Counted from the first letter of the stretch, positions 9,649 to 31,715 are shown. The stretch: 32,000 nt of DNA from Acaryochloris marina S15 (GCF_018336915.1 NZ_CP064923.1:4770001-4802000); one strand, 5' to 3'. Made by a program: numbers and translations. The notes: generated from the sequence alone by a model not told the origin.

Positions 9649-10251
9649 TCACTCAGATCCAGGTGACAACCAAGGCGTTGTACGCTCTAGCGGGCACCAC
9701 CGATCGTCAATAAGATGCGTTTCAATATCATAGACATCCCTAGTCGATACAATCAGCTCATCCTCATCCCACCGATCAATCAGTGCTATCACATCTGATT
9801 TTTGGACTGTACCAATGGAAATGGATGATTGGTGAGGACTGCCCACAGCAAACTGTAGGGCAACATCAAGATTGAGAGTCCATGAGATGCCCTGTAGTAA
9901 AGGATGATCATGGCCGCGGAATATCATCAATTCGTCTGATAATACCGCCAGTTTTTCCTGTTCGGCAGACGTCATCATATTGTGAACATGCTTGCTAAGT
10001 GGTAAATCAACCATAGTACCTAGCATTAATTCAAGAAATGATGATGATTGCCCCAGTGACTCAGGATTTGTCCAAATTTGGCCTAGCATTCTGAAGTATT
10101 CAGGATCTCGCTCTGGGAAATCAGGCTTATTTAATTCTTCAATACAAAATTTTAGAATTCGCTCCACGACTTCTAAATGAGGGTAATAAGATTGCCACAA
10201 ATATAGTCCGCGATCTCTTTTGTGCTTTGCCTTTTGATCTTGGTAAACCTT
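9649..10251 (-). pseudogene. C-terminal fragment (~200 codons) of an orphan ORF split by the IS1634-family element
   Basis: The track ORF (9649-10200) starts at a TTG. The same frame stays open for 17 more codons up to the IS boundary at 10251, so there is no independent start signal. Confidence 0.6.
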
Positions 10252-10320: not shown

Positions 10321-12003
10321 ATGTATTCACCTCAAGAGATAGACGTTCAGGATATTGACCATCTCGGTATTATTGCCGGTATCGTCGATGAGATCGGCAT
10401 TGTCGAAATAGTGGATCGATTATTAGGTACTCACGAGCAAGAGAATGTTAGTTGTGGTCAAGTTGTCAAAGCCCTGATTCTAAATGGTATGGGCTTTTTG
10501 AGTGCTCCATTGTACTTATTTAGTGAGTTTTTCGAAAGCAAAGCAACCGAGCACTTACTCGGTCAAGGTGTACTGCCAGAGCACCTCAACGATACCCGTA
10601 TCGGTCGAGTCCTCGACAAGCTCTATGCCTATGGTGTGACCCAGATATTTATCCATGTGGCAATGGCAGTCGTTCAGAAATTCGATGTAGCTCTAAGGTG
10701 TGCGCATCTAGATGCGACAAGCCTTAGTGTTGAGGGGCAATACTTAGATAAACCACAGGTTGAGGCGTCAGACGAATCCCCCTCTGCACCTGAGTCCCCC
10801 TCCCCTGCACTGGCTGAATCAGAGGAGCCGATACCCGTGAAAATCACCTACGGCTACTCACGGGACAATCGTCGTGATCTCAAGCAGTTTGTATTGAACC
10901 TACTGGTGAGTGGGGACGGGGGTATTCCTTTATTTTTACAAGTGGGCAACGGTAATGATGCGGACAAAAGTACGTTTGTGCCTATCATCCATGAATTTAA
11001 GCAACAGTGGAGTCAGCAACAGCCAGAGGTGATTGTTGCTGATAGTGCCCTCTACAGTGCCGACAATCTGCAAGCATTAGGAAGTACATCTTGGATTAGC
11101 CGAGTTCCAGCAAGTTCAACGGCAGCCCAAGACTTATTACAAGGGCTGCCGGGTTCACAGTTTCACCCCAGTGCTCTCAACGGCTATAGCTTTGTCGAAG
11201 TATGTAGTACCTATGGAGAGATTCAACAACGGTGGCTGGTGGTTGAAAGTAAAGCTCGCAGAGACTCTGGACTCAAACAAGTGCAAAAGCGGATTGATCA
11301 GGCGTTTAGCCAAAAAACTACTGCACTTAAAACCCTCTGCAAACAGACCTTCTTGTGCCCTGCAGATGCTTTAGCTGCAGCCCAAGATTTTGGCAAAATC
11401 CTCAGGTATCACACCCTTGACGATCTCAAAATCCACAAAAAACCTCATTATTCAAAGGCTGGACGACCGACAAAAGCAACGGTTGTGACTCACTACACCT
11501 ATTCTATTGAGGCTACCTTAACCCTCAATGAGCCAGTCATCGAACGCTATCGGCGGCAAGCAGGTCGTTTCATCTTAGCCACCAATCTCTTGGAACAAGA
11601 GCAATGGAGCAATGATGATATTCTGCGCGAGTATAAGAACCAGCAGGCGTGTGAAGGAGGCTTTCGCTTTATCAAAGATCCACTCTTCTTTGCCTCTAGT
11701 GTTTTCCTGAAGACACCTCGGCGTATCGCTGCCTTAGCCATGATCATGGCCTTGTGTTTGATGGTCTACAGCTTAGGACAACGACAGTTAAGAAATGCAC
11801 TAGAACAAGTACAAACAACTCTCCCTAATCAGAAGGGGAAACAAACTATGAAACCTACGTTACGTTGGATTCTCCAATGCTTTCAGGCCGTCCATTTAGT
11901 TTGGCTTGATGGTGCCAAGCATCTCATCAAGCTCAACAGCAGGCAGCAACTTATCTTGCCGTTCCTTGGGAAGGGCTGTAAAAAATATTATCTGCTCTGC
12001 TAG
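10321..12003 (+). CDS. IS1634 family transposase
   Basis: 560 aa. The N-terminus (IDHLGIIAGIVDEIGIVEIVD) resembles the DUF4277 domain found on IS1634/IS4-like transposases, followed by a DDE-type core. Confidence 0.9.
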   Translation: MYSPQEIDVQDIDHLGIIAGIVDEIGIVEIVDRLLGTHEQENVSCGQVVKALILNGMGFLSAPLYLFSEFFESKATEHLLGQGVLPEHLNDTRIGRVLDKLYAYGVTQIFIHVAMAVVQKFDVALRCAHLDATSLSVEGQYLDKPQVEASDESPSAPESPSPALAESEEPIPVKITYGYSRDNRRDLKQFVLNLLVSGDGGIPLFLQVGNGNDADKSTFVPIIHEFKQQWSQQQPEVIVADSALYSADNLQALGSTSWISRVPASSTAAQDLLQGLPGSQFHPSALNGYSFVEVCSTYGEIQQRWLVVESKARRDSGLKQVQKRIDQAFSQKTTALKTLCKQTFLCPADALAAAQDFGKILRYHTLDDLKIHKKPHYSKAGRPTKATVVTHYTYSIEATLTLNEPVIERYRRQAGRFILATNLLEQEQWSNDDILREYKNQQACEGGFRFIKDPLFFASSVFLKTPRRIAALAMIMALCLMVYSLGQRQLRNALEQVQTTLPNQKGKQTMKPTLRWILQCFQAVHLVWLDGAKHLIKLNSRQQLILPFLGKGCKKYYLLC

Positions 12004-13743: not shown

Positions 13744-14661
13744 TTAAGCCTTCTGAACTGCAGCTTCTTTGGCACCCAATTGAGAATCTTCTTCTACCAC
13801 CTCAGTCGACCCTCGCAATTTTGGATCTAATGCATCTCGCAAGGCATCACTGACAACATTTAAGGCATAAATAATCAAGAACATAGTAAATACAACCCCC
13901 GCCAAGGGCCACCAGATCCCCTGAACTAATTCCCCGGTTGCATCCGAAATCATAGACCCCCAACTGGCTCCATCTTGAATACCTACGCCCAAAAAGGTCA
14001 GAATCACTTCTGATTTGATTGCCCCAAGAATTTGGAGAGAGGCACTGATAATCGCTAAATGTACAACGTTGGGCAGAATATGCCTAAAAATGATCTGCAG
14101 GTCGTTGGCACCAATGACTCGTGCTGCAGCTACATATTCAAGATTGCGGTTTTTGAGGACCTCACTCCGAATCAGGCGACACAGACCGACCCAACCGAGT
14201 AGCCCCATTGCCAGACAAATAGCAACTAGACCCTTGCCAATCACATAAGAGATAGCAATCACCATCAAAATATAAGGCACAGAACTGATGACGGTGTAGA
14301 GCCAAACAATACCCACATCCACTAAACCACCGTAATATCCAGCAACGGCTCCTAACGTCACTCCAAGGGGAACAGAGATACTGGTCACCAAGATGCCAAT
14401 CAGCATCGCCGTTTTGGTTCCAGCTAGAATTTTATATAGGACTGAGCGACCAAATATATCCGTGCCCAACAGTTTTGCGAGGCCTAGAGAAGGAGCTTCG
14501 TATCCTGTCGCTACCCGAGTTTGGTAATCGGGCAGCAGATTTAAGATACCTAGTAAAGCCACAAAAATATAAACAGCAATAATCCCCAAGCAGATGACGA
14601 CTAACTTTTGACGACTCAGCTTTTGGGCAGCGTCCCAATAGAGGTTATTAAAACGGGGCAT
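13744..14661 (-). CDS. Peptide/nickel ABC transporter permease (DppC/OppC-like)
   Basis: It has a binding-protein-dependent transport inner-membrane domain (EAA-like region YVAAARVIGANDLQIIFRHILPN). The start was moved to the ATG at 14661, which is preceded by GAGGA and avoids a 35-nt overlap with the upstream permease. Confidence 0.9.
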   Translation of the reverse strand: MPRFNNLYWDAAQKLSRQKLVVICLGIIAVYIFVALLGILNLLPDYQTRVATGYEAPSLGLAKLLGTDIFGRSVLYKILAGTKTAMLIGILVTSISVPLGVTLGAVAGYYGGLVDVGIVWLYTVISSVPYILMVIAISYVIGKGLVAICLAMGLLGWVGLCRLIRSEVLKNRNLEYVAAARVIGANDLQIIFRHILPNVVHLAIISASLQILGAIKSEVILTFLGVGIQDGASWGSMISDATGELVQGIWWPLAGVVFTMFLIIYALNVVSDALRDALDPKLRGSTEVVEEDSQLGAKEAAVQKA

Positions 14662-14668
14662 GGGTTCC

Positions 14669-15601
14669 TCAATGTAGTTTGACGCGCGGATCCACCGCAG
14701 CAATGAGCAAATCCGTCAGAAGATTAAACAGTGCATAGGTCATCGTGATATACATCGTCATCCCTTTGAGTACGGGGAAATCACCATTATTAATGGCTGT
14801 AATCATCAAATCGCCTAAGCCAGGAATACTAAAAAATCGCTCCATTAAGAACGAGCCCAATATTAAGAAGGGAACCGCCACGATAGTAAAAGTCAGGATG
14901 GGAATCATGGCGTTTTTGAGAATATGGATAAAGAGGATACTGCGTTCGCTTACCCCTTTAGCCCGAGCCGTACGAACATAATTAGCCTGCATCTCATTCA
15001 GAAAGATCGTTCTATAGATGCGCACATCTGGGCCAATGGATACCAGGATAATAATCAGCCACGGTAAGGCCAGATAAGGAAGTGCATCCCATCCTGGCGC
15101 ATAGCCATTGATGGGAAACCACTCAAACTCATAGGCCAGAAAATACTGCATGGCAATGATATAAACCAAGTAAGAGAAACTCATGGAAATCACCGCTGTG
15201 GCCGTTGAAAAGCGATCAATCCAGGTATCTCGGTAGTAAGCAATCATCATTGCGATCGCAATATTCAATACCAAACCAAAAACAAAAGGTGGTAGCGTCA
15301 AGCTCAGAGACACCAACGCCCCACTAGCAAACGCTTCACTCAAAACCTCGCCCGTAAAGTAAGACTCTCCATAATTAAAGGTGACAATTTGCCCCAGAAA
15401 GCTAATGAACTGCCTCCATAGGGGCTGATCCAATCCCCAAAGCGCTTCTAGATCCGCAATCGCTTGCGGTGTGGCATGTTGTCCTAAAGCCACTCTAACG
15501 GGGTCTTCCCCAGCAGCGGTGAATAACACAAAAACTAAAACAGCAACCCCAAAAATGGTGGGAATGATATAGAGGAGGCGGCGAATGATATACCCAACCA
15601 T
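14669..15601 (-). CDS. Peptide/nickel ABC transporter permease (DppB/OppB-like)
   Basis: 310 aa with the N-terminal MVGYIIRRLLYIIPTIFGV signature and EAA region YVRTARAKGVSERSILFIHILKNA. Its ATG overlaps the stop of the SBP gene (TAATG), suggesting translational coupling. Confidence 0.9.
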   Translation of the reverse strand: MVGYIIRRLLYIIPTIFGVAVLVFVLFTAAGEDPVRVALGQHATPQAIADLEALWGLDQPLWRQFISFLGQIVTFNYGESYFTGEVLSEAFASGALVSLSLTLPPFVFGLVLNIAIAMMIAYYRDTWIDRFSTATAVISMSFSYLVYIIAMQYFLAYEFEWFPINGYAPGWDALPYLALPWLIIILVSIGPDVRIYRTIFLNEMQANYVRTARAKGVSERSILFIHILKNAMIPILTFTIVAVPFLILGSFLMERFFSIPGLGDLMITAINNGDFPVLKGMTMYITMTYALFNLLTDLLIAAVDPRVKLH

Positions 15602-17415
15602 TACTTCAGTCCTTCAGCCTTCATTTCTGTATCAATATCCAGAAATTTAGCAGTCGATCCCAACATCAGGTTCGGCTTGGAATTCAGCAGCCATTTCTGG
15701 CGCATCCCTACACTAATAGGTGCTTTCAAAAAGACCACTGGAACATCTGCTTTCAGTAACAACGCCATCTTTTCAATAATCTGATTACGCTCTGATCCGG
15801 CAGGCATCCGTCGCATCTGCTCATACAGTCGATCAAATTCAGGGTTTTGGTAAGAGCCATCATTGGGTCCCGGCGCTTTATTAGGACCATAGAAGAGTTG
15901 ATAGAAGTTCTCGGCATCGGGATAGTCGGCTCTCCACCCCCCACTGGCTAGCTGAAAACTGCCTCCTTCCTTACGACCTAAATAGTCAGAGAAGGATAGA
16001 AATTCACCCTTTAACTGAATGCCAGATTTAGCCAGTTGCGCCCGCAGAAACTCATGATTCTGACGGGTAATATTATCTTGTGATCCATATAGGATAACGA
16101 CAGGAGGAAGTCCTTTCCCCTCTGGATATCCAGCTTCTTTTAACTTGGCTTTGGCCTTTTGCAAGTTGTGAGAATACCATTGGACCGAAACGGACTGCTC
16201 ACTCCCCGCAATCGGTAGCGGCACGATGGTATTAAGGGTATGGCCACGACCATTTTCCATTTTCTCAATATAGGCTGGAGTATCCAGGGCATAGGCTAAG
16301 GCTTGACGTAGCACCTTATTTTGGCCAAAGACTTTATCTCTAAAGTTAATAGTGATGTAAAAAGAGGAGAGTGCATCAACGGAGGAAATATTAAATTGCT
16401 TAGCAAACTTACCCTTGAGCTGAAACTCATTGCTCACTTTTTCAGCCATTTTGGTGAAATTATCCCGATCAATACCAATGGAGTCCAACTCTCCACTCAG
16501 AAATTTGAGCATTCGAGGCTGCGCTTCTTCGATCAGGGGAATTCGAACTTCGTCAACAAAAGGGAGCTGTTCTCCTGCGTTGGTGAGTAGACCCTGGCTT
16601 TGATCGTCCGGATCTCCTTCAGTGGGATAGGTGCCATGGTAGTTGGGGTTTTTCTTAAGCACCATCACCCCTTTGCGCGGATTTTTAGCCAAGGTAAAGG
16701 GGCCAGTCCCGACAGCATGATGTTCTAATTTACGGCCATACTTCTCAACGGCTTCCTTTGGCACAATCGACAATGCATTGGTAGCAAAAGACATGAGTAA
16801 CAATGGATCAGGCTCAATCATCACAATCTTAAAGGTGTACTCATCGACCTTTTCTAGACCAGCAATATTCTCCTGGTCATAATCTAGATCCTTTTGTTGA
16901 CGGGTTTTTTCCCGAAACTCATCCAGCCCCTTAATTCGATTTTGAAGTAGTGCTGGATAACTTTGGGGATTGACGTTCACGTCTGCAAATCGCTTGATCG
17001 TGAACAGGACATCATCTGCTGTCAGTTCTCGCCCTTTCCCGCCTGAGAAACACGGATCATCATGAAACTTGATACCTTTGCGAAGTTTGAACGTGTAGGT
17101 GAGCTTATCCTCTCCTATCTCAGGCATAGACTCTAAAAGATTTGGGGTTAACTCATAGGGACGTTTGAGATAGTGATAGTCCAAGAGAGGGTCATAGATA
17201 TGACTAATGATTCGGGAAGATGCTGCATCAAACTGTTTAGGTGGATCGAGGCTCCTATAGACATCCCCCCGATAAGAATCCAATACTTTGACATCGGTAT
17301 TCCCCACACCGTCTCGTGGGCGACACCCAAGGGGCACTGCCACTGTGGCGATAAGTAAGGCAGACAAAACTAATTGGGGTGCTTTTTGCCAGATTGAAAT
17401 TCTCTGTACAGCCAT
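15601..17415 (-). CDS. ABC transporter substrate-binding protein, family 5 (peptide/nickel)
   Basis: About 604 aa counted from the ATG at 17415 (MAVQRISIWQKAPQLVLSALLIATVAVPLGC, which is lipoprotein-signal-like). The track's upstream start at 17466 is possible but adds a non-signal leader. Confidence 0.9.
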   Translation of the reverse strand: MAVQRISIWQKAPQLVLSALLIATVAVPLGCRPRDGVGNTDVKVLDSYRGDVYRSLDPPKQFDAASSRIISHIYDPLLDYHYLKRPYELTPNLLESMPEIGEDKLTYTFKLRKGIKFHDDPCFSGGKGRELTADDVLFTIKRFADVNVNPQSYPALLQNRIKGLDEFREKTRQQKDLDYDQENIAGLEKVDEYTFKIVMIEPDPLLLMSFATNALSIVPKEAVEKYGRKLEHHAVGTGPFTLAKNPRKGVMVLKKNPNYHGTYPTEGDPDDQSQGLLTNAGEQLPFVDEVRIPLIEEAQPRMLKFLSGELDSIGIDRDNFTKMAEKVSNEFQLKGKFAKQFNISSVDALSSFYITINFRDKVFGQNKVLRQALAYALDTPAYIEKMENGRGHTLNTIVPLPIAGSEQSVSVQWYSHNLQKAKAKLKEAGYPEGKGLPPVVILYGSQDNITRQNHEFLRAQLAKSGIQLKGEFLSFSDYLGRKEGGSFQLASGGWRADYPDAENFYQLFYGPNKAPGPNDGSYQNPEFDRLYEQMRRMPAGSERNQIIEKMALLLKADVPVVFLKAPISVGMRQKWLLNSKPNLMLGSTAKFLDIDTEMKAEGLK

Positions 17416-17548
17416 AAATTCAGACAACGCTACATAAACGACAAACCCATCAGAGGGAATCATCAAACCGTTGAGACAAGATTAATGGGAAGTTATGGTT
17501 TGATCAAATCTGAGTGTTCATTTAGATCGTATTGTGGCACCAATGCCC

Positions 17549-20505: not shown

Positions 20506-22260
20506 TCATTCTCTCACCTCTCGAATATCATGAATATTCCACGTTACTTTGCCTAAAGCCGTATATTGGGTGCCTTCAAAGTCATTTCGGACTGCTGCTA
20601 GGGCCAACGGATTAATCAGATAAATAAAGGGTAAGTACTCCTGGGCAATCTGTTGAGTCTCCGCATAAATCGCTTTGCGTTTGGCCTCATCGATCTCTTG
20701 AGCACCTTGAATATAGAGATCGTCAATCTTCTGTTCCCAGTCGCTAACCGTAAAGCCTTGGATGGGTTCACTAGGGGGCTGGGGTTTTTGATTAAACATA
20801 TGTAGGCCCCCTTCTGGAGACCAGACATTCGCACCCGTATTGGGTTCTAAACCACCCGTTAACCCCAACAAAGCGCAGTCCCAATCTAATGAGTCACTCA
20901 ATTTATCAACCATCGTGTTGAAGGCAATGGGGGTATAGTCCACTTTTATGCCGACTTTCGATAAATCTTGCTTAATTTGGGCTCCTAATGTACTACCTGC
21001 AGGGGCCATCAGCGTAAAACGAACTGGATTATCCTTGTCATCAAAAAGTTGTCCTTTATTTTTGGTGGTAAACCCAGCGTCTTTCAGAAGTTGCTTGGAT
21101 TTCTCCGGATCATAGTTGTAAACCTTCAGGCCTTCTTCAGGAGATAGGTAATAAGGACTTTGAACCGATATCGACGAATTTTGGGGTAAACCTAGTCCTT
21201 GATAGGTATTAGCCAGCATTCGCTCTCGATCAATGGCATAGGCAACAGCTTGGCGAAATTTGACGTTATTAAACCATCGCGACTTCACAGGGTTGACTAG
21301 AGGCTTGTTGTTTCTGCGTCCTCGATTGAGGTTAAAGAGAATAAAGGTCGTGCCAAAATCAGGCCCCCCTTCATAGATGGTGAAGTTACCAGCCTTTTCT
21401 TCCCGCTTCAGGAGCGAAAACGTACTGGCCCGCACCCCTACAGAATCTAATCCACCCGAGCGGAATTGTAGAAGAGCCGTATCGGGAGATTCGACAATTT
21501 TCCAAATAATGCGCTCAATATTCCCGTTGGCACGACCAGGGATTTGATAGCGCCAATAAAACTGGTTGCGTCGAAACACGACTCGCTGGTTGGTTTCGTA
21601 GGATTCGAGCTGGTAAGGCCCATTGACAATAATTTCCCTGGGGTCCGTATCGACCCCCCAAGCAGAAATGAATTGGGGATTGCCTTTGCGATCTGGCGTA
21701 TCCACCAATTTCTTGAGGGCATGGGCCGGCAAAATATTAACGGCCCCAGCAGTCCGCAGAAATGGGGCAAAGGGTTCCGGAATGGAGAACTCTACTCGCC
21801 GGTCATCTAGTTTTCTGACCTTGGGCAAGGCCCGACTTTTACCAATTCTGAGAACATCGCGAGTATCAGTAGGAATAGCTTCATTCAGATAGACATCGTT
21901 ATAGGAAAAAACAACATCATCTGCTGTTAAAGCAACCCCATCTGACCATTTCAGATTAGGTCGGAGGGTAAAGATAATTGTGAGTTTATCGGCAGAGAAT
22001 TCCCAAGACTCCGCAAGGGCAGGCTCAATCTCGCCTGTAAGACCATTCTGGGTCGTTAATCCTTCATAAATCAAGCCGAAGACATTGTTGGCTTCTTGAC
22101 TTTGGGAAGAATTAAACGTTTTAGGGGCACTCAGCAGGGTATCTACATACTGGGGCACCCGTGCCGTTTGGGTTTTGAATTGGGAGAGGCTACAGCCAGG
22201 GAGTGCGATCGCAACCACCAATACCAAACTCAAAGCCACCCACCGACGCAGAAAAGCCAT
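20506..22260 (-). CDS. ABC transporter substrate-binding protein, family 5 (peptide-type), lipoprotein
   Basis: 584 aa with a lipobox (ALPGCS). It is a paralogue of the SBP at 15601-17415 but has no adjacent permease or ATPase genes. Confidence 0.9.
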   Translation of the reverse strand: MAFLRRWVALSLVLVVAIALPGCSLSQFKTQTARVPQYVDTLLSAPKTFNSSQSQEANNVFGLIYEGLTTQNGLTGEIEPALAESWEFSADKLTIIFTLRPNLKWSDGVALTADDVVFSYNDVYLNEAIPTDTRDVLRIGKSRALPKVRKLDDRRVEFSIPEPFAPFLRTAGAVNILPAHALKKLVDTPDRKGNPQFISAWGVDTDPREIIVNGPYQLESYETNQRVVFRRNQFYWRYQIPGRANGNIERIIWKIVESPDTALLQFRSGGLDSVGVRASTFSLLKREEKAGNFTIYEGGPDFGTTFILFNLNRGRRNNKPLVNPVKSRWFNNVKFRQAVAYAIDRERMLANTYQGLGLPQNSSISVQSPYYLSPEEGLKVYNYDPEKSKQLLKDAGFTTKNKGQLFDDKDNPVRFTLMAPAGSTLGAQIKQDLSKVGIKVDYTPIAFNTMVDKLSDSLDWDCALLGLTGGLEPNTGANVWSPEGGLHMFNQKPQPPSEPIQGFTVSDWEQKIDDLYIQGAQEIDEAKRKAIYAETQQIAQEYLPFIYLINPLALAAVRNDFEGTQYTALGKVTWNIHDIREVRE

Positions 22261-23408: not shown

Positions 23409-23580
23409 GGGCCACCTCTCCTCTTAGAAAACTCTATGGGCGCAAGCTGCACTCCACTCAAATTTTATGAGTTAGCCAAAAGTGAATGACGACCCGTAAG
23501 AAAACGTGATGGCTCCATGACGTTTTGGCACAAAACCATACATAGCTTCGAAGTTCGCAAGAAAAGGTTGAACTCAATCA

Positions 23581-23700
23581 TTAACCCTTCAATATCAATG
23601 GAGATGTCATCTATGGACAGATCCTTAAGGGGATTATCGCCCATGGGGGAAAGCTATCCTGAGAGATTTTTCTCGTAAGGCTGCCACCCTTGCAAAGTCA
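23581..23700 (-). pseudogene. Decayed copy of the 3' end of the AsmA-like gene (relic fragment)
   Basis: It aligns by eye with 26213-26345 at roughly 75-80% identity. One frame encodes GDNPLKDLSIDDISIDIEG, compared with GDNPLKNFPIDDIPIDDIPIDIGD in the intact gene. Upstream it is frameshifted, and one 15-nt repeat unit is missing. Confidence 0.6.
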
Positions 23701-23989
23701 GATGCAGCTCACAACAATGCCTTCATGGCACTTCCAAACCGAGTAATTGCAATCACTCGGTAACTGGCAAAGGCTGATCGCTTTGTCTGAGGTGAAGCAA
23801 TAACGCCCAGTTACCATCTACTGACTGTTTTATTTTTTTTCAATGACGACCGAAAATGCTCTCCAGAACTTGCTTAAAAACCTTGATACGTTCGCTTACA
23901 GATGGTTAATATCTAAGTTTCTAAATTCTTCATGTGTCAGGTCATCTTTTTTATACGTTTAACATAAAATAGCTCTGACGCTTGAGATC

Positions 23990-26092
23990 ATGATGCTAGG
24001 CATCCAACCATTTAGAGCGGCTTTAACCCCACTCCAAAAAGCTTTTACCTGTATTTGTTGTTCATCCATGTACCTGACTCGTCTTGTTCACTCTAAGACC
24101 CTGCTGTTATTGCGAGAGGCATTTACATCCCTCTTGCCTGTCGTCTTAGTGATGAATATTATCGTTTTGCTGTCAGGTCTGTCTGGCCTGCTGGCATCTC
24201 AGAGCGTGGTAGCAGAGAGTTTCATCAACGGGAATGAAGTCAGCCGACTCTATTTCTTTTTAGTCCCGTTTTTTCTCAACATTTCCCTGAGCACCCTAAT
24301 GGCCAAGGAGAAAGATCTGGATCAGGTGAGTACTGTTCTGATCTCAGTCGTTTGTTTTTTGCGGGTGTCGGGCTTTTTGTTTATCGATTCGACAGGCCAA
24401 ATCCTCTCGTTTCAAGGTTCAGTGCTCACTAGTATTCCAGCCACACTGGTAGCAGTCACACTACTCCATTACTTCAGTCGATTCTCTGCTCTGCAATTTT
24501 TTAGAGGTCGATCTGAGGTGAGTCCAGCCCTCCAAAGAACCCTGAACCTCCTGATTCCAGGTCTCCTAACAGTGTTGTGTTTTGAGTTAATCGGCCAAGG
24601 ATTTAGGCTATTTTTTAAGACTGGTCTGTTCAGTTTTTTATTCGAAATCCTACCTAAATTGCAAGCCACCCAAGAAGTCATTCTCTTTAAGCTAATTTCT
24701 CAACTTTCTTGGTTTTTCGGGATTCATGGCGAGTATAGTGCCGATGGTCTATTTCGAATTTTGAATGCGATTCCATCCTCTGAAGCTGGCAGTATTCACT
24801 TCAAAGTTTTGCATGATGTTTTTATGAATATTGGAGGGTCTGGCTCCACTTTCGTCGTGCCATTGGCGATTCTTTTTCTACCCGGATCTACCCAATTCAA
24901 ACCCATTGCGCAGCTGAGTCTGCCATTCGCACTCTTCAATGTGAATGAGATTTTATTGTTCGGACTTCCGATTATTCTAAATCCACTCTTTCTGGCACCG
25001 TTTCTGTTAGCTCCGCTGGTCAATATGGCTATTGCGCTGACTGCAATTCACTGGGGAGCATTCACCATTAGTGCGACTGCCATAAACTGGATGTCTCCGC
25101 CTTTATATAGTGCCTATGCGGCCTCTGGAGGATCGGGAGGGGCGGTACTGACCCAGTTCCTTTGCATCGTTATCGATATGGGTATCTACTATCCATTTCT
25201 GGTTCTGGCAAAGCAGCAGTCCAATACTCCACGTGCGCTCCGCAAGCTCTTGGATGGTGATGCCTACCAGTTTGTGAATAGAGAAATCAATCGCCAAGAA
25301 GAGCGGCGTTTTATGACTCAGAAAATGGATCAAGTCCAAGACATGGAAGAGGTCCAACGCTTACTACAGCAACTCAAAGGCGGGCAGTTTCTCCTCTACT
25401 TTCAGCCTAAGGTAGATGCCCAGTCGAAAGCACTCGTTGGCTTAGAAACGTTGCTGCGTTTCCAAGATGCAGGGGGTAACATTGTCCCCCCTACGTTTTT
25501 GCCGATCCTCTACCAACAGGGCTTATCTAAGGCTATAGATCAAAAAGTGCTGTCGCTTGTTTTTGACCAGATCAAACAGTGGCGAGGGAATGGTCAAGGA
25601 TTTCCTCAGATTAGTATTAACCTGGATAAACATTTTTTATTAGATCCACCCTCTGTAAAGACTTTGATTGCTAAAGCCAGACAAGAAGGGATTTGCTTTG
25701 AACTAGAAATTACTGAACATACCTACACTTCGGAAGTGAAATCTTTGGCATCAGTGGTTCGTGACCTTCGATCTGCTGGGCATCAAGTTTCAATTGATGA
25801 TTTTGGGGCAGGCTATTCTTCCCTCACAACCTTAGTTTCTCTGGAAGCAGATTCGGTCAAATTAGACCGCAAGCTGGTCGTCGCCCCTGAAGGGGAAATC
25901 CAGCGGGGACGAGTGTTACTAGAGTCTAGTGTGAAGCTCTGTCATGACTTAGGATTTTCTGTGGTGGCAGAAGGAATTGAAAACTTGTCTCAGTTACAAC
26001 TAGTGCAACACTGTGGAGTAGATTTCGTGCAAGGGTATTACACAGGCAAACCCATGCCTGCTAATCAGGTCAGTCGCCTATTTCAGGCGTAA
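23990..26092 (+). CDS. PTS EIIC (lactose/cellobiose-type) domain / EAL domain fusion protein, putative c-di-GMP phosphodiesterase
   Basis: 700 aa. Residues ~30-420 are polytopic and carry EIIC motifs (LSWFFGIHG, NIGGSGSTF, LFNVNEILLFGLPIILNPLFLAPF, ASGGSGGAVLTQ). Residues ~455-695 carry EAL motifs (FQPKV...GLETLLRF, SINLD, ELEITEH, SIDDFGAGYSSL, VKLDRKLV, VAEGIEN, QGYYTGKP). Confidence 0.9.
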   Translation: MMLGIQPFRAALTPLQKAFTCICCSSMYLTRLVHSKTLLLLREAFTSLLPVVLVMNIIVLLSGLSGLLASQSVVAESFINGNEVSRLYFFLVPFFLNISLSTLMAKEKDLDQVSTVLISVVCFLRVSGFLFIDSTGQILSFQGSVLTSIPATLVAVTLLHYFSRFSALQFFRGRSEVSPALQRTLNLLIPGLLTVLCFELIGQGFRLFFKTGLFSFLFEILPKLQATQEVILFKLISQLSWFFGIHGEYSADGLFRILNAIPSSEAGSIHFKVLHDVFMNIGGSGSTFVVPLAILFLPGSTQFKPIAQLSLPFALFNVNEILLFGLPIILNPLFLAPFLLAPLVNMAIALTAIHWGAFTISATAINWMSPPLYSAYAASGGSGGAVLTQFLCIVIDMGIYYPFLVLAKQQSNTPRALRKLLDGDAYQFVNREINRQEERRFMTQKMDQVQDMEEVQRLLQQLKGGQFLLYFQPKVDAQSKALVGLETLLRFQDAGGNIVPPTFLPILYQQGLSKAIDQKVLSLVFDQIKQWRGNGQGFPQISINLDKHFLLDPPSVKTLIAKARQEGICFELEITEHTYTSEVKSLASVVRDLRSAGHQVSIDDFGAGYSSLTTLVSLEADSVKLDRKLVVAPEGEIQRGRVLLESSVKLCHDLGFSVVAEGIENLSQLQLVQHCGVDFVQGYYTGKPMPANQVSRLFQA

Positions 26093-28806: not shown

Positions 28807-29307
28807 TCAAACAATTGTGGGGTAGGTGAGTATGTCATCCCAATGCCAAGCTCGCGAGGCTAGATCAGCACGTTGTGCCGCCGTTGTTTTAAGCCGACTG
28901 TGTGTCCAAATCCAATTGAAATAGCTGACCACTAATCGAGCAGTGACTTTGGTTTGCGCCCACACTTTGCCAAATTTGTTCTGGCGTCGATGCCATCGAC
29001 CACTGTGCTGTCGAATAATGCCATTGGTGCGTTCGAGTCGTTGAGTTCTGTCCTTGCCAATGTAATGGTCAATCTCCCAAGGCAACACTCTTTCGTAACC
29101 ACCCCAATCGTCGCTATTCCAGTCCTTGCAATCGGTCTTACCTTCAGTGCTAGTCACCAGTTCATTCAATAATGAATCGGTGTGCTTGCCCACACGACAC
29201 GAGAGGATCACGCCGCTTGTGTTTGCCAAGGTAATCGCCATCCAACAATCACCCATCTCTAGCTCATGGGGAAGACAGTGTTTTTGCTTTTTTTCACAAA
29301 GGACCAC
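28807..29307 (-). CDS. insB: IS1 family transposase catalytic part (InsB frame), expressed by -1 frameshift as InsAB'
   Basis: It lies in the -1 frame relative to insA. A shift at GTG-AAA-AAA-AGC (plus-strand T7 at 29290-29296) would give ...DEMWSFVKKKQKHC..., joined to a DDE-type core. Confidence 0.85.
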   Translation of the reverse strand: MVLCEKKQKHCLPHELEMGDCWMAITLANTSGVILSCRVGKHTDSLLNELVTSTEGKTDCKDWNSDDWGGYERVLPWEIDHYIGKDRTQRLERTNGIIRQHSGRWHRRQNKFGKVWAQTKVTARLVVSYFNWIWTHSRLKTTAAQRADLASRAWHWDDILTYPTIV

Positions 29308-29636
29308 ATTTCATCTGCACTGACATCCTCCGTTTCAACGGCTTGCACTTGGCCATTATGGAGTTGCTGAGATCGTTGGCTAGCAGCTCTTACTAGAGAG
29401 ACTACAGTGTTGTAAGCCAGGCCACTGGTCCGAGTGATACCTCGAAGACTACTCCCTTCTGCATGGGCTTGGAGAACTTGTCGGACCTGCTCTGGACTCA
29501 CCTGACGACGATAGTAAAGGGTATCAAAGCGTTCAGTAAAGGTCTGCTGGCACTCAGGACAACGGTATCGTTGAAGCATGTTGGGCATCTTGCCATGCTT
29601 GTGTGCTTTGGAATGACCGCATAGTGGGCATTGCAT
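29259..29636 (-). CDS. insA: IS1 family InsA-like protein (zinc finger + HTH), upstream frame of the transposase
   Basis: CPLCG...CPEC zinc-finger pairs and an HTH region. It ends just after the DEMWSFVKK motif at the A7 run. Confidence 0.85.
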   Translation of the reverse strand: MQCPLCGHSKAHKHGKMPNMLQRYRCPECQQTFTERFDTLYYRRQVSPEQVRQVLQAHAEGSSLRGITRTSGLAYNTVVSLVRAASQRSQQLHNGQVQAVETEDVSADEMWSFVKKSKNTVFPMS

Positions 29637-30467: not shown

Positions 30468-31007
30468 CTAATAGTATTTTTCAGGGAAACCATAAAGCAG
30501 TTCACTCGGATAGGCTGTATCAACTAGAAATTCAGAAACTTCGACATCAAATAATTGGCTGATCGAATACTTATCGAGGTATTCCTTGATTTGACTTGGA
30601 TTTGAAAGATCGTAGTCATTGATGTATTGATCAACAATTTCACTGCGCAAAGAATGCAGCCATCTCTGAGGAAAATCACTGTCTAAGTCTGAATCAAAAA
30701 AAGGAATTAATAAGAAGATAGGATCCAGCTTTTCTGAAGATTTACTCTGCAATATTGGCAGAGGTTGCAGAATACATATTCCTCTATTGATACGAGCATC
30801 CGACCAATGTTCGAATTTCGGTAGTGGCGGGAAAAATCTACTAATCCCTGTGTCGCAGGCGGCTCGCCATTCAGCCATACCAGATGTATAGACTAACGTT
30901 TTTTGATTGACTACATTTGTTAATGCCAGCTCTCTAAGTTGAGCGAGAGAGATAGGGCCTACAACTTCTTTGCCAACCATATAATGCCAAGCATCATTGT
31001 CGCTCAT
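30468..31007 (-). CDS. GYF_2 (DUF4339) domain-containing protein with uncharacterised C-terminal domain
   Basis: N-terminal WHYMVGKEVVGPISLAQLRELALTNVVNQKTLVYTSGMAEWRAA fits the GYF_2 pattern (W.Y..G...GP.s..eL..l......TLVW..GM..W..A). The remaining ~120 aa are unrecognised. Confidence 0.75.
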   Translation of the reverse strand: MSDNDAWHYMVGKEVVGPISLAQLRELALTNVVNQKTLVYTSGMAEWRAACDTGISRFFPPLPKFEHWSDARINRGICILQPLPILQSKSSEKLDPIFLLIPFFDSDLDSDFPQRWLHSLRSEIVDQYINDYDLSNPSQIKEYLDKYSISQLFDVEVSEFLVDTAYPSELLYGFPEKYY

Positions 31008-31199: not shown

Positions 31200-31715
31200 T
31201 TAGAACGTCACATACAGCCCACTCTGTCGCGCAAGGCAACTTCTGAGGAATGAAAGGTACTCTATCGTCAAGGAATTATCCGACTTAGATAGAAGTTCAA
31301 AGGACTGGCTTACCTCATCTGGTGATTGAAAATACGATCCCATTTTCCCTGGATCAAACGGATTGAAAGAAGGTCCAACGGTTTGACCCAACAGAGCGGC
31401 TTGGGATGAGTGAGTTAAACAATCGCCACAATCAAGCCATGCAGAACCGATACCAAAATCTTTGATTGGATCATAGAAGCGGGTAATCGCAAAATCTCCA
31501 AGTGTGTGAACATCATGAACATTTTCTACTTGTGTTCGCCAATCTAAATTGAGAGGTTCCCCTTCATATGGATCAACAAGGAATCGCACATTTTCTTCTA
31601 TGTATGAGTGCAGTGGAACTACATCATTTGATGCAAGAGCATTATGTAAAATCGTGAGAAAGTCAGTCTTAAAAAACTGCCAATCAAATTCGAAAGCTTT
31701 ATGCTCCATCGACAT
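31200..31715 (-). CDS. Hypothetical protein (171 aa), no recognised domain
   Basis: Clean ATG ORF on the same strand as, and between, the TIR-like gene tail and the GYF_2 gene. AT-rich. Confidence 0.6.
   Translation of the reverse strand: MSMEHKAFEFDWQFFKTDFLTILHNALASNDVVPLHSYIEENVRFLVDPYEGEPLNLDWRTQVENVHDVHTLGDFAITRFYDPIKDFGIGSAWLDCGDCLTHSSQAALLGQTVGPSFNPFDPGKMGSYFQSPDEVSQSFELLSKSDNSLTIEYLSFLRSCLARQSGLYVTF

What the first reader, a model, noticed from the sequence alone, without database searches (positions are those of the whole stretch)
23990..26092. PTS EIIC sugar-permease domain fused to a complete EAL domain, in a cyanobacterial context with no PTS partners nearby
Seen in sequence: one uninterrupted 700-aa ORF. 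Its first ~420 aa carry the hallmark motifs of lactose/cellobiose-type EIIC permeases as known from ChbC (LSWFFGIHG, NIGGSGSTF, LFNVNEILLFGLPIILNPLFLAPF, ASGGSGGAVLTQ). Its last ~240 aa carry every conserved EAL catalytic and metal-binding motif (E-T-L, N, ExxE, DDFGAGYSS, KxD, EGIE, QG), so an active c-di-GMP phosphodiesterase is expected. Established knowledge: EIIC is the sugar-binding translocator of the phosphotransferase system and normally needs EIIB, EIIA, HPr and EI. None of these is in the window, and to my knowledge canonical sugar PTS systems are generally not found in cyanobacteria. Inference: the permease fold may have been recruited as a ligand-sensing 'transceptor' that couples binding of a beta-glucoside or chitobiose-like sugar to c-di-GMP turnover. 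I believe such fusions appear in automated annotations, but I know of no experimental characterisation.
Basis: partly seen in the sequence, partly recalled or inferred. Interest (0 to 1): 0.72.

Follow-up and report, generated by a model that had tools for sequence, protein, structure and literature searches.

The report
Sugar-permease domain fused to c-di-GMP phosphodiesterase
This Acaryochloris gene encodes a membrane protein that joins an intact sugar-permease (PTS EIIC) module to an intact c-di-GMP-degrading enzyme; it probably senses a sugar without the usual PTS machinery, and it belongs to a large family that databases already list but nobody has tested.

Summary
One uninterrupted gene on the + strand encodes PTS_EIIC (Pfam E 1.3e-16; ChbC 3QNQ E 5e-23) followed by EAL (E 2.3e-56). 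One correction: the true start is almost certainly Met27 (window 24068), giving 674 aa, because the 26-codon extension is broken in the CCMEE 5410 orthologue. All 11 EAL catalytic residues are present, as are the ChbC His250 and Glu334 equivalents. Both halves are under purifying selection (dN/dS 0.07 and 0.12).

The fusion is not unique. NCBI already names it [quoted passage not shown]. It occurs in many cyanobacteria, Vibrio, Pseudomonas, Achromobacter, Delftia and Bordetella. A 2022 review lists it as rare. I found no experimental work.

New here:
- The two halves co-evolve (Mantel r 0.87–0.96).
- The TM10-to-EAL linker has a fixed length (IQR 68–69 residues) despite about 9% sequence identity.
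- No PTS gene lies near the gene in six lineages.
- The same EIIC module recurs fused to chemoreceptor (MCP) and hybrid histidine-kinase outputs.

Together these results favour a PTS-independent "transceptor" whose EIIC state gates the phosphodiesterase. The ligand is unknown, and I could not check the whole genome for PTS genes.

The parts
24068..26092 (+). Gene for the EIIC-EAL protein, 674 aa plus stop. This is the most likely true coding region, starting at Met27 of the 700-aa ORF.
   Evidence: The orthologue in Acaryochloris CCMEE 5410 is 674 aa, and its upstream extension is broken by a stop and indels. dN/dS against that orthologue is 0.096.
23990..24067 (+). 26-codon in-frame extension of the ORF as read by the first stage. 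It is probably 5' untranslated leader, not coding sequence.
   Evidence: The extension is not conserved as coding in CCMEE 5410: translation reads ...AALT*PN..., with a 10-bp insertion and a 1-bp deletion.
24068..25222 (+). EIIC membrane module (gene residues 1-385), Lac/Cel (ChbC-like) type, covering all ten transmembrane segments and the re-entrant hairpins.
   Evidence: Pfam PF02378 E 1.3e-16. TIGR00410 scores 135 bits, below its cutoff of 236. ChbC 3qnq aligns over chain residues 20-425. The AF2 model has pLDDT 83.7 and pTM 0.78. The only seven Foldseek hits with probability 1.0 are all PTS EIIC structures. dN/dS is 0.069.
24710..24730 (+). WFFGIHG motif. His220 (ORF numbering His246) is the equivalent of ChbC His250.
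   Evidence: Alignment to 3qnq. W215, G218 and G221 are invariant. His is present in 58 of 61 family members.
24827..24850 (+). NIGGSGST glycine-rich loop of the substrate-binding (transport) domain.
   Evidence: G256, G257 and G259 are invariant in 61 of 61 sequences, and the loop aligns to ChbC YMGGSGAT.
24935..24949 (+). FNVNE motif. Glu294 (ORF numbering Glu320) is the equivalent of ChbC Glu334.
   Evidence: Alignment to 3qnq FNINE. E294 is invariant in 61 of 61 sequences.
25223..25381 (+). Helical linker (residues 386-438). It is a cytoplasmic continuation of TM10, then a short low-confidence hinge, then a long helix that runs straight into the first EAL strand.
   Evidence: The AF2 model shows helices 357-394 and 399-436, with pLDDT below 50 at 391-404. 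Linker length from TM10 to EAL is fixed across 114 non-redundant relatives (median 68, IQR 68-69; 71 in this protein). Sequence identity between clades is only about 9%. dN/dS is 0.24.
25382..26089 (+). EAL c-di-GMP phosphodiesterase domain (residues 439-674) with the complete catalytic set: E460, R464, N518, E547, E550, D577, D578, K598, E635, E638, Q655.
   Evidence: Pfam PF00563 E 2.3e-56. MorA 4rni matches at E 2e-38 with TM 0.84. The catalytic columns are invariant or nearly so in the family. 98 of 122 non-redundant relatives keep all 11 residues.
25796..25822 (+). DDFGAGYSS: the metal-binding Asp pair and loop 6 of the EAL domain.
23883..23912 (+). Promoter-like hexamer pair (TTGATA, 18-nt spacer, TAATAT) about 155 nt upstream of ATG 24068. 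This is weak evidence only.
   Evidence: It is a consensus scan hit, and the number of hits in the region (5) is not above the shuffled expectation of 3.9 +/- 2.3. The region is well conserved with CCMEE 5410.

Best explanation
The gene encodes a PTS-independent membrane sensor (a 'transceptor') that controls c-di-GMP breakdown. The N-terminal module is a complete ChbC-like EIIC permease fold. It still binds a small carbohydrate-type ligand in its mobile substrate-binding domain. The last transmembrane helix (TM10) of that domain continues into the cytoplasm as a helical linker of fixed length that runs directly into a catalytically competent EAL domain. Ligand occupancy, meaning the elevator position of the EIIC transport domain within the EIIC dimer, would shift the two linkers. 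That shift would change the geometry of the EAL dimer and switch c-di-GMP hydrolysis up or down. No EIIA, EIIB, HPr or EI is required.

Shown here: the architecture, both folds, intact binding-site and catalytic residues, purifying selection on both halves, co-inheritance of the halves, the linker-length constraint, the absence of neighbouring PTS genes, and reuse of the same module with MCP and histidine-kinase outputs.

Inferred: that a ligand binds, that binding is transmitted through the linker, and the sign of the response. The identity of the ligand is unknown. A beta-linked di- or oligosaccharide is only a guess based on family resemblance.
For: 1. Both domains are real and complete.
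2. The ChbC His250 and Glu334 equivalents and the GGSG loop are invariant or nearly so in 61 family members across cyanobacterial and proteobacterial clades that share only 25% identity in this half.
3. The EIIC half is the most constrained part of the gene (dN/dS 0.069, against 0.119 for EAL and 0.24 for the linker). This argues against a mere membrane anchor.
4. All 11 EAL catalytic residues are present here and in 98 of 122 non-redundant relatives.
5. The halves co-evolve: Mantel r is 0.87 (36 sequences) and 0.96 (25 sequences), with 0 of 2000 permutations as high, and no sequence changes clade between halves.
6. Linker length is fixed (median 68, IQR 68-69, 114 representatives) although linker sequence is about 9% identical between clades. 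This is expected for a mechanical coupler.
7. No PTS IIA, IIB, HPr or EI gene lies within about 10 kb in Acaryochloris, Leptolyngbya PCC 7376, Myxosarcina, Vibrio vulnificus, Pseudomonas or Achromobacter, and the gene context is not conserved. PTS is reported absent from cyanobacteria (PMC2405797).
8. The same EIIC module is fused to MCPsignal in six independent clusters, including a Clostridium MAG on a 644-kb contig. It is fused to HisKA-HATPase-REC in three clusters. This is the usual signature of a portable sensory input module.
9. Characterised precedents exist for transporter folds fused to signalling outputs: CbrA (PMC7096432, PMC13022988) and Ks-Amt5 (PMC5764959).
Against: - There is no experimental evidence for any family member, and no ligand is known.
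- Retention of the His/Glu pair is also what one would expect if phosphotransfer from a trans-encoded EIIB were still used. Many proteobacterial hosts of the family do have a PTS.
- Genome-wide absence of PTS genes in Acaryochloris was not tested here. The supporting survey dates from 2008.
- The protein scores below the TIGR00410 subfamily cutoff (135 against 236 bits), so substrate specificity cannot be transferred.
- Structural superposition on ChbC is only TM 0.40. I attribute this to a different elevator state, because the model fits outward-facing MalT 5iws (0.53) better than inward-facing MalT 6bvg (0.41). That attribution is an inference.
- Only monomer models were made, and the linker hinge is low-confidence.
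- The NJ tree has no support values.
Confidence: 0.55

Rival explanations
1. PTS-coupled reporter. The EIIC module still works as a true PTS permease with EIIB and EIIA encoded elsewhere. The EAL domain reads out docking of phospho-EIIB or transport flux. This is close to the review's description of PTS_EIIC as a 'phosphoreceiver'.
For: The His/Glu pair next to the sugar C6-OH in ChbC is retained. Many hosts, such as Vibrio and some Pseudomonas, have a PTS. Review PMC8846402 classes PTS_EIIC as a receiver domain. A canonical EIIC-IIB protein (P0224) is among the relatives.
Against: EIIC itself is not phosphorylated in the PTS. In the Lac/Cel family the phosphoryl group passes from EIIA-His to EIIB-Cys to the sugar (established knowledge). 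No IIA, IIB, HPr or EI gene lies near the gene in six lineages. PTS is reported absent from cyanobacteria, yet the cyanobacterial clade conserves the module as strongly as the others do. Canonical transporters form a separate compact clade in the EIIC tree.
Confidence: 0.12
2. Membrane anchor or scaffold only. The EIIC fold merely tethers and dimerises a constitutively active EAL phosphodiesterase at the membrane, and no ligand is sensed.
For: No ligand is known. ChbC-type EIICs are obligate dimers and EAL domains act as dimers (established knowledge), so a scaffolding role is plausible. The gene context gives no hint of a substrate.
Against: Anchors drift quickly, but here the EIIC half has the lowest dN/dS (0.069). 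The conserved positions are precisely the substrate-site motifs of ChbC, not generic hydrophobic residues. A 385-residue, ten-helix elevator fold is an expensive anchor. Reuse of the module with MCP and HK outputs fits an input domain.
Confidence: 0.1
3. Reverse coupling. The EAL domain acts as a c-di-GMP sensor that gates a PTS-independent sugar facilitator, so c-di-GMP level controls uptake or efflux through the EIIC module.
For: EIIC proteins can mediate slow facilitated diffusion without phosphorylation (established knowledge). A subclade of the family has thoroughly degenerate EAL domains (P0131, P0132, P0134, P0157, P0165), as seen in c-di-GMP receptor proteins such as LapD and FimX.
Against: The window protein and 98 of 122 relatives keep every catalytic residue. 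This points to hydrolysis rather than mere binding. The MCP and histidine-kinase fusions are outputs, not inputs, so information flows from EIIC to the C-terminal domain in those relatives.
Confidence: 0.1
4. Artefact. Two separate genes (an EIIC gene and an EAL gene) were joined by a sequencing or assembly error or a recent frameshift.
For: None was found.
Against: The same single-ORF architecture is found in more than 300 homologues from independent genomes and metagenomes. The CCMEE 5410 orthologue is collinear and gap-free over 674 codons. The halves co-evolve.
Confidence: 0.01

Closest known systems
ChbC / CelB / LacE: EIIC permeases of the PTS lactose/cellobiose family (TC 4.A.3; structure 3QNQ of B. 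cereus ChbC)
   Same: The sequence family is the same (PF02378; the best PDB sequence hit for this half is 3qnq at E 4.9e-23). The fold is the same (the only Foldseek hits with probability 1.0 are EIICs). The His250 and Glu334 equivalents and the GGSG loop are present.
   Different: The protein scores below the TIGR00410 subfamily cutoff. It carries a C-terminal EAL domain. There is no adjacent IIA or IIB gene. The host phylum is reported to lack a PTS. Canonical transporters cluster apart from the fused forms in the EIIC tree.
'PTS sugar transporter subunit IIC/EAL domain-containing protein' (NCBI product name), corresponding to the Pfam architecture PTS_EIIC+EAL listed in Randall et al. 2022 (PMC8846402)
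   Same: This is the family the window protein belongs to. Architecture and length (about 670-720 aa) are identical. Identity is 28-32% to Vibrio, Pseudomonas, Achromobacter and Delftia members and 45-96% to cyanobacterial ones.
   Different: There is no architectural difference. The family is only catalogued. The review calls the domain a 'phosphoreceiver' and cites no experiment on the fusion.
CbrA (SLC5-STAC-PAS-histidine kinase) of Pseudomonas and Ks-Amt5 (Amt-histidine kinase) of Kuenenia: characterised bacterial transporter-fold sensors
   Same: In both, a complete transporter fold at the N-terminus is fused in one polypeptide to a cytoplasmic signalling output, and ligand or transport state is thought to be relayed to that output (PMC7096432, PMC13022988, PMC5764959).
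   Different: The transporter fold differs (an EIIC elevator fold, against LeuT-fold SLC5 or Amt). The output differs (EAL rather than a kinase, although EIIC-kinase relatives exist). There is no STAC or PAS domain; coupling is through a plain helical linker.
EAL phosphodiesterases with integral-membrane sensor modules (for example MHYT-GGDEF-EAL proteins and CSS-domain PDEs of E. coli; from my own knowledge and PMC8846402)
   Same: A membrane-embedded input domain is followed by a helical connector and a catalytically active EAL domain. The EAL fold matches MorA, RocR and others at TM 0.8 or above.
   Different: Here the input module is a recognisable solute-transporter fold with a conserved substrate pocket, not a dedicated sensor fold.

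Membership tests
PTS EIIC, lactose/cellobiose family (PF02378; TIGR00410; TC 4.A.3) | Significant match to the PF02378 profile above the gathering score | tested here: met
   61.0 bits against a cutoff of 30.7, E 1.3e-16, profile positions 1-319 of 319
PTS EIIC, lactose/cellobiose family (PF02378; TIGR00410; TC 4.A.3) | Score above the curated NCBIfam subfamily or equivalog cutoffs (TIGR00410 lacE; TIGR00359 cellobiose; NF007634 chitobiose; TIGR00394 lactose) | tested here: not met
   135 bits against cutoffs of 236 and 434; 86 against 760; 82 against 614. The protein is a divergent relative, and substrate specificity cannot be transferred.
PTS EIIC, lactose/cellobiose family (PF02378; TIGR00410; TC 4.A.3) | ChbC-like three-dimensional fold (ten transmembrane helices plus re-entrant hairpins) | tested here: met
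   The EIIC-only model has pLDDT 83.7 and pTM 0.78. The top Foldseek hits are 3qnq (E 2e-12), MalT, PtsG and VcIIC-Glc, all at probability 1.0, and the next hit has probability 0.14. Caveat: TM is only 0.40 to ChbC and 0.53 to outward-facing MalT, probably because the conformational state differs.
PTS EIIC, lactose/cellobiose family (PF02378; TIGR00410; TC 4.A.3) | Conserved His and Glu at the sugar C6-OH site (ChbC His250, Glu334) | tested here: met
   His220 and Glu294 align to them. They are conserved in 58 of 61 and 61 of 61 family members.
PTS EIIC, lactose/cellobiose family (PF02378; TIGR00410; TC 4.A.3) | Cognate EIIB and EIIA (and EI and HPr) encoded with it or elsewhere in the genome | tested here: not met
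   None is present in the 32-kb window or within about 10 kb in five other lineages. Genome-wide absence is not testable with these tools. The literature states that PTS is absent from cyanobacteria.
PTS EIIC, lactose/cellobiose family (PF02378; TIGR00410; TC 4.A.3) | Phosphorylation-coupled sugar translocation | not testable with these tools
   This needs uptake and phosphorylation assays.
EAL-type c-di-GMP phosphodiesterase (PF00563), catalytically active class | Significant PF00563 match over the whole domain | tested here: met
   191 bits, E 2.3e-56, profile positions 2-236 of 236
EAL-type c-di-GMP phosphodiesterase (PF00563), catalytically active class | Complete catalytic and metal-binding set (RocR E175, R179, N233, E265, E268, D295, D296, K316, E352, E355, Q372 equivalents) and an intact loop 6 | tested here: met
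   E460, R464, N518, E547, E550, D577, D578, K598, E635, E638 and Q655 are present, with loop 6 reading DDFGAGYSS. The mapping to RocR numbering is from my own knowledge.
EAL-type c-di-GMP phosphodiesterase (PF00563), catalytically active class | TIM-barrel-like EAL fold | tested here: met
   Foldseek TM 0.84-0.85 to MorA EAL (4rni, 4rnj) and 0.81-0.89 to BifA, MucR and TBD1265
EAL-type c-di-GMP phosphodiesterase (PF00563), catalytically active class | Hydrolysis of c-di-GMP to pGpG | not testable with these tools
   This needs an enzyme assay.
Catalogued EIIC/EAL fusion family (NCBI 'PTS sugar transporter subunit IIC/EAL domain-containing protein') | Single polypeptide of about 670-720 aa with N-terminal PF02378 and C-terminal PF00563, homologous over its full length | tested here: met
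   309 homologues, and nearly all of the 120 listed carry both domains. Coverage is 86-100%, and E-values run from 1e-62 down to 0. The halves co-evolve.
Bacterial transceptors (transporter fold fused to a signalling output; CbrA and Ks-Amt5 type) | Complete transporter-fold membrane domain directly fused to a cytoplasmic signalling domain | tested here: met
Bacterial transceptors (transporter fold fused to a signalling output; CbrA and Ks-Amt5 type) | STAC coupling domain between transporter and output (SLC5-type transceptors) | tested here: not met
   There is no Pfam hit in the linker. It is a plain helix of about 53 residues. The protein may work like a transceptor, but it is not a member of the STAC group.
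Bacterial transceptors (transporter fold fused to a signalling output; CbrA and Ks-Amt5 type) | Ligand-dependent change of signalling output | not testable with these tools
   Only indirect support is available: binding-site conservation, the linker-length constraint and alternative outputs.

The most novel reading that the evidence does not exclude
Lac/Cel-type EIIC permease folds form a widespread class of bacterial transceptors that work without the PTS and have not been recognised experimentally. In this reading, the elevator movement of the substrate-binding domain, relayed through a fixed-length helical extension of TM10, gates at least three kinds of signalling output: EAL phosphodiesterase, MCP chemoreceptor and hybrid histidine kinase. 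In PTS-less cyanobacteria such as Acaryochloris, this would give a direct line from an extracellular carbohydrate to c-di-GMP level, and so to the choice between motile and attached or aggregated life.
Probability: 0.4. Interest if true: 0.7.

Novelty: new variant of a known kind. Interest (0 to 1): 0.5.

Why it matters
Input signals are unknown for most c-di-GMP enzymes. Recent papers call bacterial transceptors "rare" or only just discovered (PMC13022988, PMC11109136).

If the EIIC module really senses a ligand, this family would be a large, easily recognised set of carbohydrate-responsive c-di-GMP switches. More than 100 clusters at 50% identity carry an EAL domain, and MCP and kinase variants exist as well.

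It would also show that an elevator-type transporter can drive a signalling domain, and that PTS parts persist and function in phyla without a PTS.

For Acaryochloris the family offers a testable candidate link between environmental sugars and surface-attached growth. That organism has about 60 c-di-GMP domain proteins (PMC3747582).

The claim is directly testable with PDE assays on membranes, with and without sugars, and with two point mutants.

Tried and rejected
- The genome-contig scan with the full-length family alignment was wasted. The back-translated pattern DDFG[TA]G[YF]S[SA] pulled in generic EAL proteins. I replaced it with exact-protein contig look-ups.
- Rfam found nothing in the whole window at gathering thresholds or in the 580-bp upstream gap at permissive thresholds. 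There is no riboswitch or leader RNA.
- The promoter and terminator scan did not exceed the shuffled expectation.
- Two papers I tried to open by PMC id (intended: Cao et al. 2011 on ChbC, and Barabote & Saier 2005) were not held under the ids I gave. The roles of ChbC His250 and Glu334 are therefore cited from my own knowledge.
- Literature searches for any name of the fusion returned nothing beyond one review paragraph.
- My first catalytic-residue census was wrong because it mishandled insert columns. I redid it.
- My strict regex for the EAL loop under-counted EAL domains (50 of 150). The HMM search found 123 of 150.
- I considered and rejected a frameshift or assembly artefact, because orthologues are collinear.
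- I considered and rejected assembly chimeras as the source of the MCP and HK fusions, because they recur in independent samples.
- I could not assign a ligand from the NCBIfam scores, which do not discriminate.
Full report
OBSERVATION. Profile searches confirm both halves. Pfam PTS_EIIC covers residues 42-342 (61 bits, gathering cutoff 30.7, E 1.3e-16, full profile length). Pfam EAL covers residues 456-688 (191 bits, E 2.3e-56). Against solved structures, the N-terminal half matches only B. cereus ChbC (3qnq, E 4.9e-23, chain residues 20-425). The C-terminal half matches about 45 EAL structures, with MorA best at E 2e-38.

START CODON. One correction is needed. The orthologue in Acaryochloris sp. 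CCMEE 5410 is 674 aa. Its DNA upstream of the internal ATG carries an in-frame stop, a 10-bp insertion and a 1-bp deletion relative to the window, while everything downstream is collinear. The gene therefore most likely starts at Met27 (window 24068). Below I number residues from that Met; add 26 for ORF numbering.

ORGANISM AND CONTEXT. The window is syntenic with the CCMEE 5410 chromosome: SBP_bac_5, di-haem cytochrome c peroxidase, the EIIC-EAL gene, an AsmA-like gene, then gnd. The source is therefore an Acaryochloris-type cyanobacterium. The gene stands alone. It diverges from the peroxidase gene across a 580-bp gap and converges on the AsmA/DUF748 gene. None of the roughly 27 other ORFs in the window is a PTS component or a glycoside hydrolase. 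Rfam finds nothing in the window or, at permissive thresholds, in the upstream gap.

IS EACH HALF INTACT? In a 61-member family alignment, the EAL catalytic and metal-binding set (E460, R464, N518, E547, E550, D577, D578, K598, E635, E638, Q655) and loop 6 (DDFGAGYSS) are invariant or nearly so. The "E-T-L" in place of "E-A-L" keeps the catalytic Glu. In the EIIC half, alignment to ChbC places His220 on ChbC His250 and Glu294 on ChbC Glu334. From my knowledge of Cao et al. 2011, these two residues flank the sugar C6-OH; I could not open that paper here. His is kept in 58 of 61 members and Glu in 61 of 61. W215, G218, G221 and G256, G257, G259 of the GGSG loop are invariant across clades that share only 25% identity in this half.

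SELECTION. Between the window and CCMEE 5410, dN/dS is 0.069 for the EIIC half, 0.24 for the linker and 0.119 for the EAL half. The permease-like half is the most constrained part of the protein.

STRUCTURE. An AlphaFold2 model of the 674-aa protein has mean pLDDT 81. A model of the EIIC half alone has pLDDT 83.7 and pTM 0.78. The EAL half superposes on MorA at TM 0.84. For the EIIC half, the only seven Foldseek hits with probability 1.0 are PTS EIIC transporters (ChbC, MalT, PtsG, V. cholerae IIC-Glc). The next hit drops to probability 0.14. TM to ChbC is only 0.40. The model fits outward-facing MalT (5iws, 0.53) better than inward-facing MalT (6bvg, 0.41). I therefore read the low value as a difference in elevator state rather than in fold, but that is an inference. 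TM10 continues out of the membrane as a helix (357-394). A short low-confidence hinge follows (391-404). A second long helix (399-436) then runs straight into the first EAL strand.

HOW COMMON IS THE FUSION? It is not rare, and its existence is not new. A search of 5.8 billion proteins returned 309 homologues, and nearly all of the 120 listed carry PF02378 plus PF00563. Cyanobacterial members include Acaryochloris, Thermosynechococcaceae, Myxosarcina, Leptolyngbya PCC 7376, Roseofilum, Leptothoe and Phormidesmis, at 45-96% identity. Members from Vibrio vulnificus and V. navarrensis, Grimontia, Enterovibrio, the Pseudomonas fluorescens group, Achromobacter, Delftia and Bordetella lie at 28-32% identity. 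NCBI names them [quoted passage not shown].

An exhaustive HMMER scan of 1.84 billion cluster representatives with the EIIC half alone gave 1971 hits. Of the best 150, 113 are 640-780 aa long and 123 carry an EAL domain. The closest relatives of this EIIC are therefore overwhelmingly other fusions.

LITERATURE. A 2022 census of c-di-GMP sensory domains lists PTS_EIIC as rare and calls it a "phosphoreceiver", and cites no experiment on the fusion (PMC8846402). That label does not fit PTS biochemistry, because EIIC is not phosphorylated (established knowledge). Searches for any name of the fusion found no other paper. The cyanobacterial c-di-GMP census does not mention the EIIC domain (PMC3747582).

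WAS IT ACQUIRED AND KEPT AS A UNIT? Pairwise distances of the two halves correlate strongly within the cyanobacterial clade (Mantel r 0.87, 36 sequences) and the proteobacterial clade (r 0.96, 25 sequences). None of 2000 permutations reached these values, and no sequence changes clade between halves.

EVIDENCE ON MECHANISM. Four results bear on it.

1. Partners. No PTS IIA, IIB, HPr or EI gene lies within about 8-10 kb of the gene in Acaryochloris, Leptolyngbya PCC 7376, Myxosarcina GI1, V. vulnificus, Pseudomonas or Achromobacter insolitus. The neighbourhoods share nothing. [quoted passage not shown] I could not scan the Acaryochloris genome myself.

2. Coupler. The distance from the conserved "Y-x-P" at the end of TM10 to the "Y-Q-P" at the start of the EAL domain has a median of 68 residues and an IQR of 68-69 in 114 non-redundant representatives (71 in this protein). 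Linker sequence identity between clades is only about 9%. Conserved length with unconserved sequence is what a rigid helical transmission element predicts.

3. Portability. The same EIIC module is fused to a methyl-accepting chemotaxis signalling domain (P0226) and to HisKA-HATPase_c-Response_reg (P0255). These are not assembly chimeras. EIIC-MCP recurs in six clusters at 44-100% identity, including a Clostridium sp. MAG on a 644-kb contig. EIIC-kinase recurs three times (P0255, P0305, P0371).

4. Tree. In a rough NJ tree of the EIIC module, the canonical transporters (stand-alone Lactobacillus-type EIICs and an EIIC-IIB protein) form one compact clade. The MCP and kinase fusions sit among the EAL fusions (no support values).

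An N-terminal membrane module found with three different cytoplasmic signalling outputs is the classic signature of a sensory input domain.

BEST EXPLANATION (confidence about 0.55). The protein is a PTS-independent transceptor. A ChbC-like EIIC dimer binds a carbohydrate-type ligand. The position of its mobile substrate-binding domain is relayed through the TM10 extension and linker helix to the EAL dimer, and this sets c-di-GMP hydrolysis. The anatomy, conservation, co-evolution, linker constraint, lack of partners and alternative outputs are shown here. Ligand binding, transmission and the sign of the response are inferred. The ligand is unknown: the cellobiose, chitobiose and lactose equivalog models all score far below their cutoffs and do not discriminate.

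RIVALS.
- A PTS-coupled reporter using trans-encoded EIIB (about 0.12). The retained His/Glu pair and the PTS-containing proteobacterial hosts favour it. The cyanobacterial clade and the absence of partner genes count against it.
- A mere membrane anchor (about 0.1). The EIIC half being the most constrained region, and constrained at the substrate-site motifs, counts against it.
- Reverse coupling, with c-di-GMP gating a facilitator (about 0.1). A subclade with degenerate EAL domains hints at it, but the intact catalytic set here and the MCP and HK relatives argue against it.
- A sequencing artefact (less than 0.01).

COMPARISON WITH KNOWN SYSTEMS. The protein is a member of the catalogued EIIC/EAL family. 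As a PTS EIIC it meets the profile, fold and site-residue criteria. It fails the curated Lac/Cel subfamily cutoff, and no neighbouring partner subunits were found; genome-wide absence could not be tested. I therefore do not file it as a PTS permease in the functional sense. As an EAL phosphodiesterase it meets every sequence and fold criterion. Functionally, it is closest to the characterised transporter-fused sensors CbrA (SLC5-STAC-kinase; PMC7096432, PMC13022988) and Ks-Amt5 (Amt-kinase; PMC5764959). It uses a different transporter fold, a different output and no STAC domain. Recent transceptor papers call such proteins rare in prokaryotes and do not mention EIIC.

VERDICT. The sensor reading now has solid comparative backing. 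The ligand guess and the genome-wide absence of a PTS remain untested, and the architecture is already catalogued and widespread rather than peculiar to cyanobacteria. I rate it a new (uncharacterised) variant of known kinds, namely sensor-coupled EAL phosphodiesterases and bacterial transceptors. Interest is 0.5.

Noticed in passing
L090:479-4628 (Logan contig SRR10097265_74422): The EIIC-hybrid histidine kinase gene (P0255) overlaps the end of an upstream EAL-HDOD gene, and a ParA/BcsQ-like ATPase gene lies just downstream. This hints that EIIC-type sensors are also wired into c-di-GMP, and perhaps cellulose, pathways when the output is a kinase.
   Followed up: partly
Proteins P0131, P0132, P0134, P0157, P0165 (also P0218, P0234, P0138): A subclade of EIIC-EAL proteins has a thoroughly degenerate EAL domain, with 7-10 of the 11 catalytic residues replaced, while the EIIC His and Glu motifs are kept. 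These may be c-di-GMP receptors or non-enzymatic signalling proteins.
   Followed up: partly
Protein P0105 (Delftia) and two cyanobacterial members of alignment A1: The ChbC His250 equivalent is replaced by Gln in the Delftia cluster (189 member sequences) and by Pro in two cyanobacterial sequences. The Glu334 equivalent is never replaced. These natural variants could be informative about the role of the His.
   Followed up: no
Protein P0164 (1243 aa): This protein has EIIC plus EAL followed by four RTX calcium-binding repeats (HemolysinCabind). It is an odd architecture seen on two contigs, and it could be a read-through or mis-called gene.
   Followed up: no
window 28807-29636 (-): An IS1-family transposase is split into two overlapping ORFs: an InsA-like zinc ribbon (29259-29636) and DDE_Tnp_IS1 (28807-29307). 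This is the usual programmed-frameshift layout. Synteny with CCMEE 5410 ends here, just after gnd, where that genome has a different DDE_Tnp_1 transposase.
   Followed up: partly
window 10321-12003 (+): A 560-aa IS4-like transposase (DUF4277 + DDE_Tnp_1) lies between an unannotated 183-aa ORF, which follows an AraC-family regulator gene, and an NAD(P)H-binding protein gene.
   Followed up: no
window 13744-17466 and 20506-22260 (-): Two family-5 solute-binding protein genes and two Opp/Dpp-type permease genes are present, but the window holds no ATPase genes. A SIMPL/DUF541 gene and an S41 tail-specific protease gene lie between them. The same order is found in CCMEE 5410.
   Followed up: no
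window 23409-24067: The 580-bp gap upstream of the gene has no Rfam match and no called gene in the window, although a 58-aa ORF is called in the equivalent gap of CCMEE 5410 (L001:9146-9322). The last 200 bp or so are about 88% identical between the two strains.
   Followed up: partly
window 9649-10200 (-) and 31200-31715 (-): Two ORFs of 183 and 171 aa have no Pfam match. A neighbouring 179-aa ORF (30468-31007) has only a GYF_2 domain.
   Followed up: no
models m7a3424cf9e3a and mba140fcc6d52: The AlphaFold model of the EIIC module superposes better on outward-facing MalT (5iws, TMq 0.53) than on inward-facing MalT (6bvg, 0.41) or inward-facing ChbC (0.40). The family alignment may favour an outward-facing state.
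   Followed up: no
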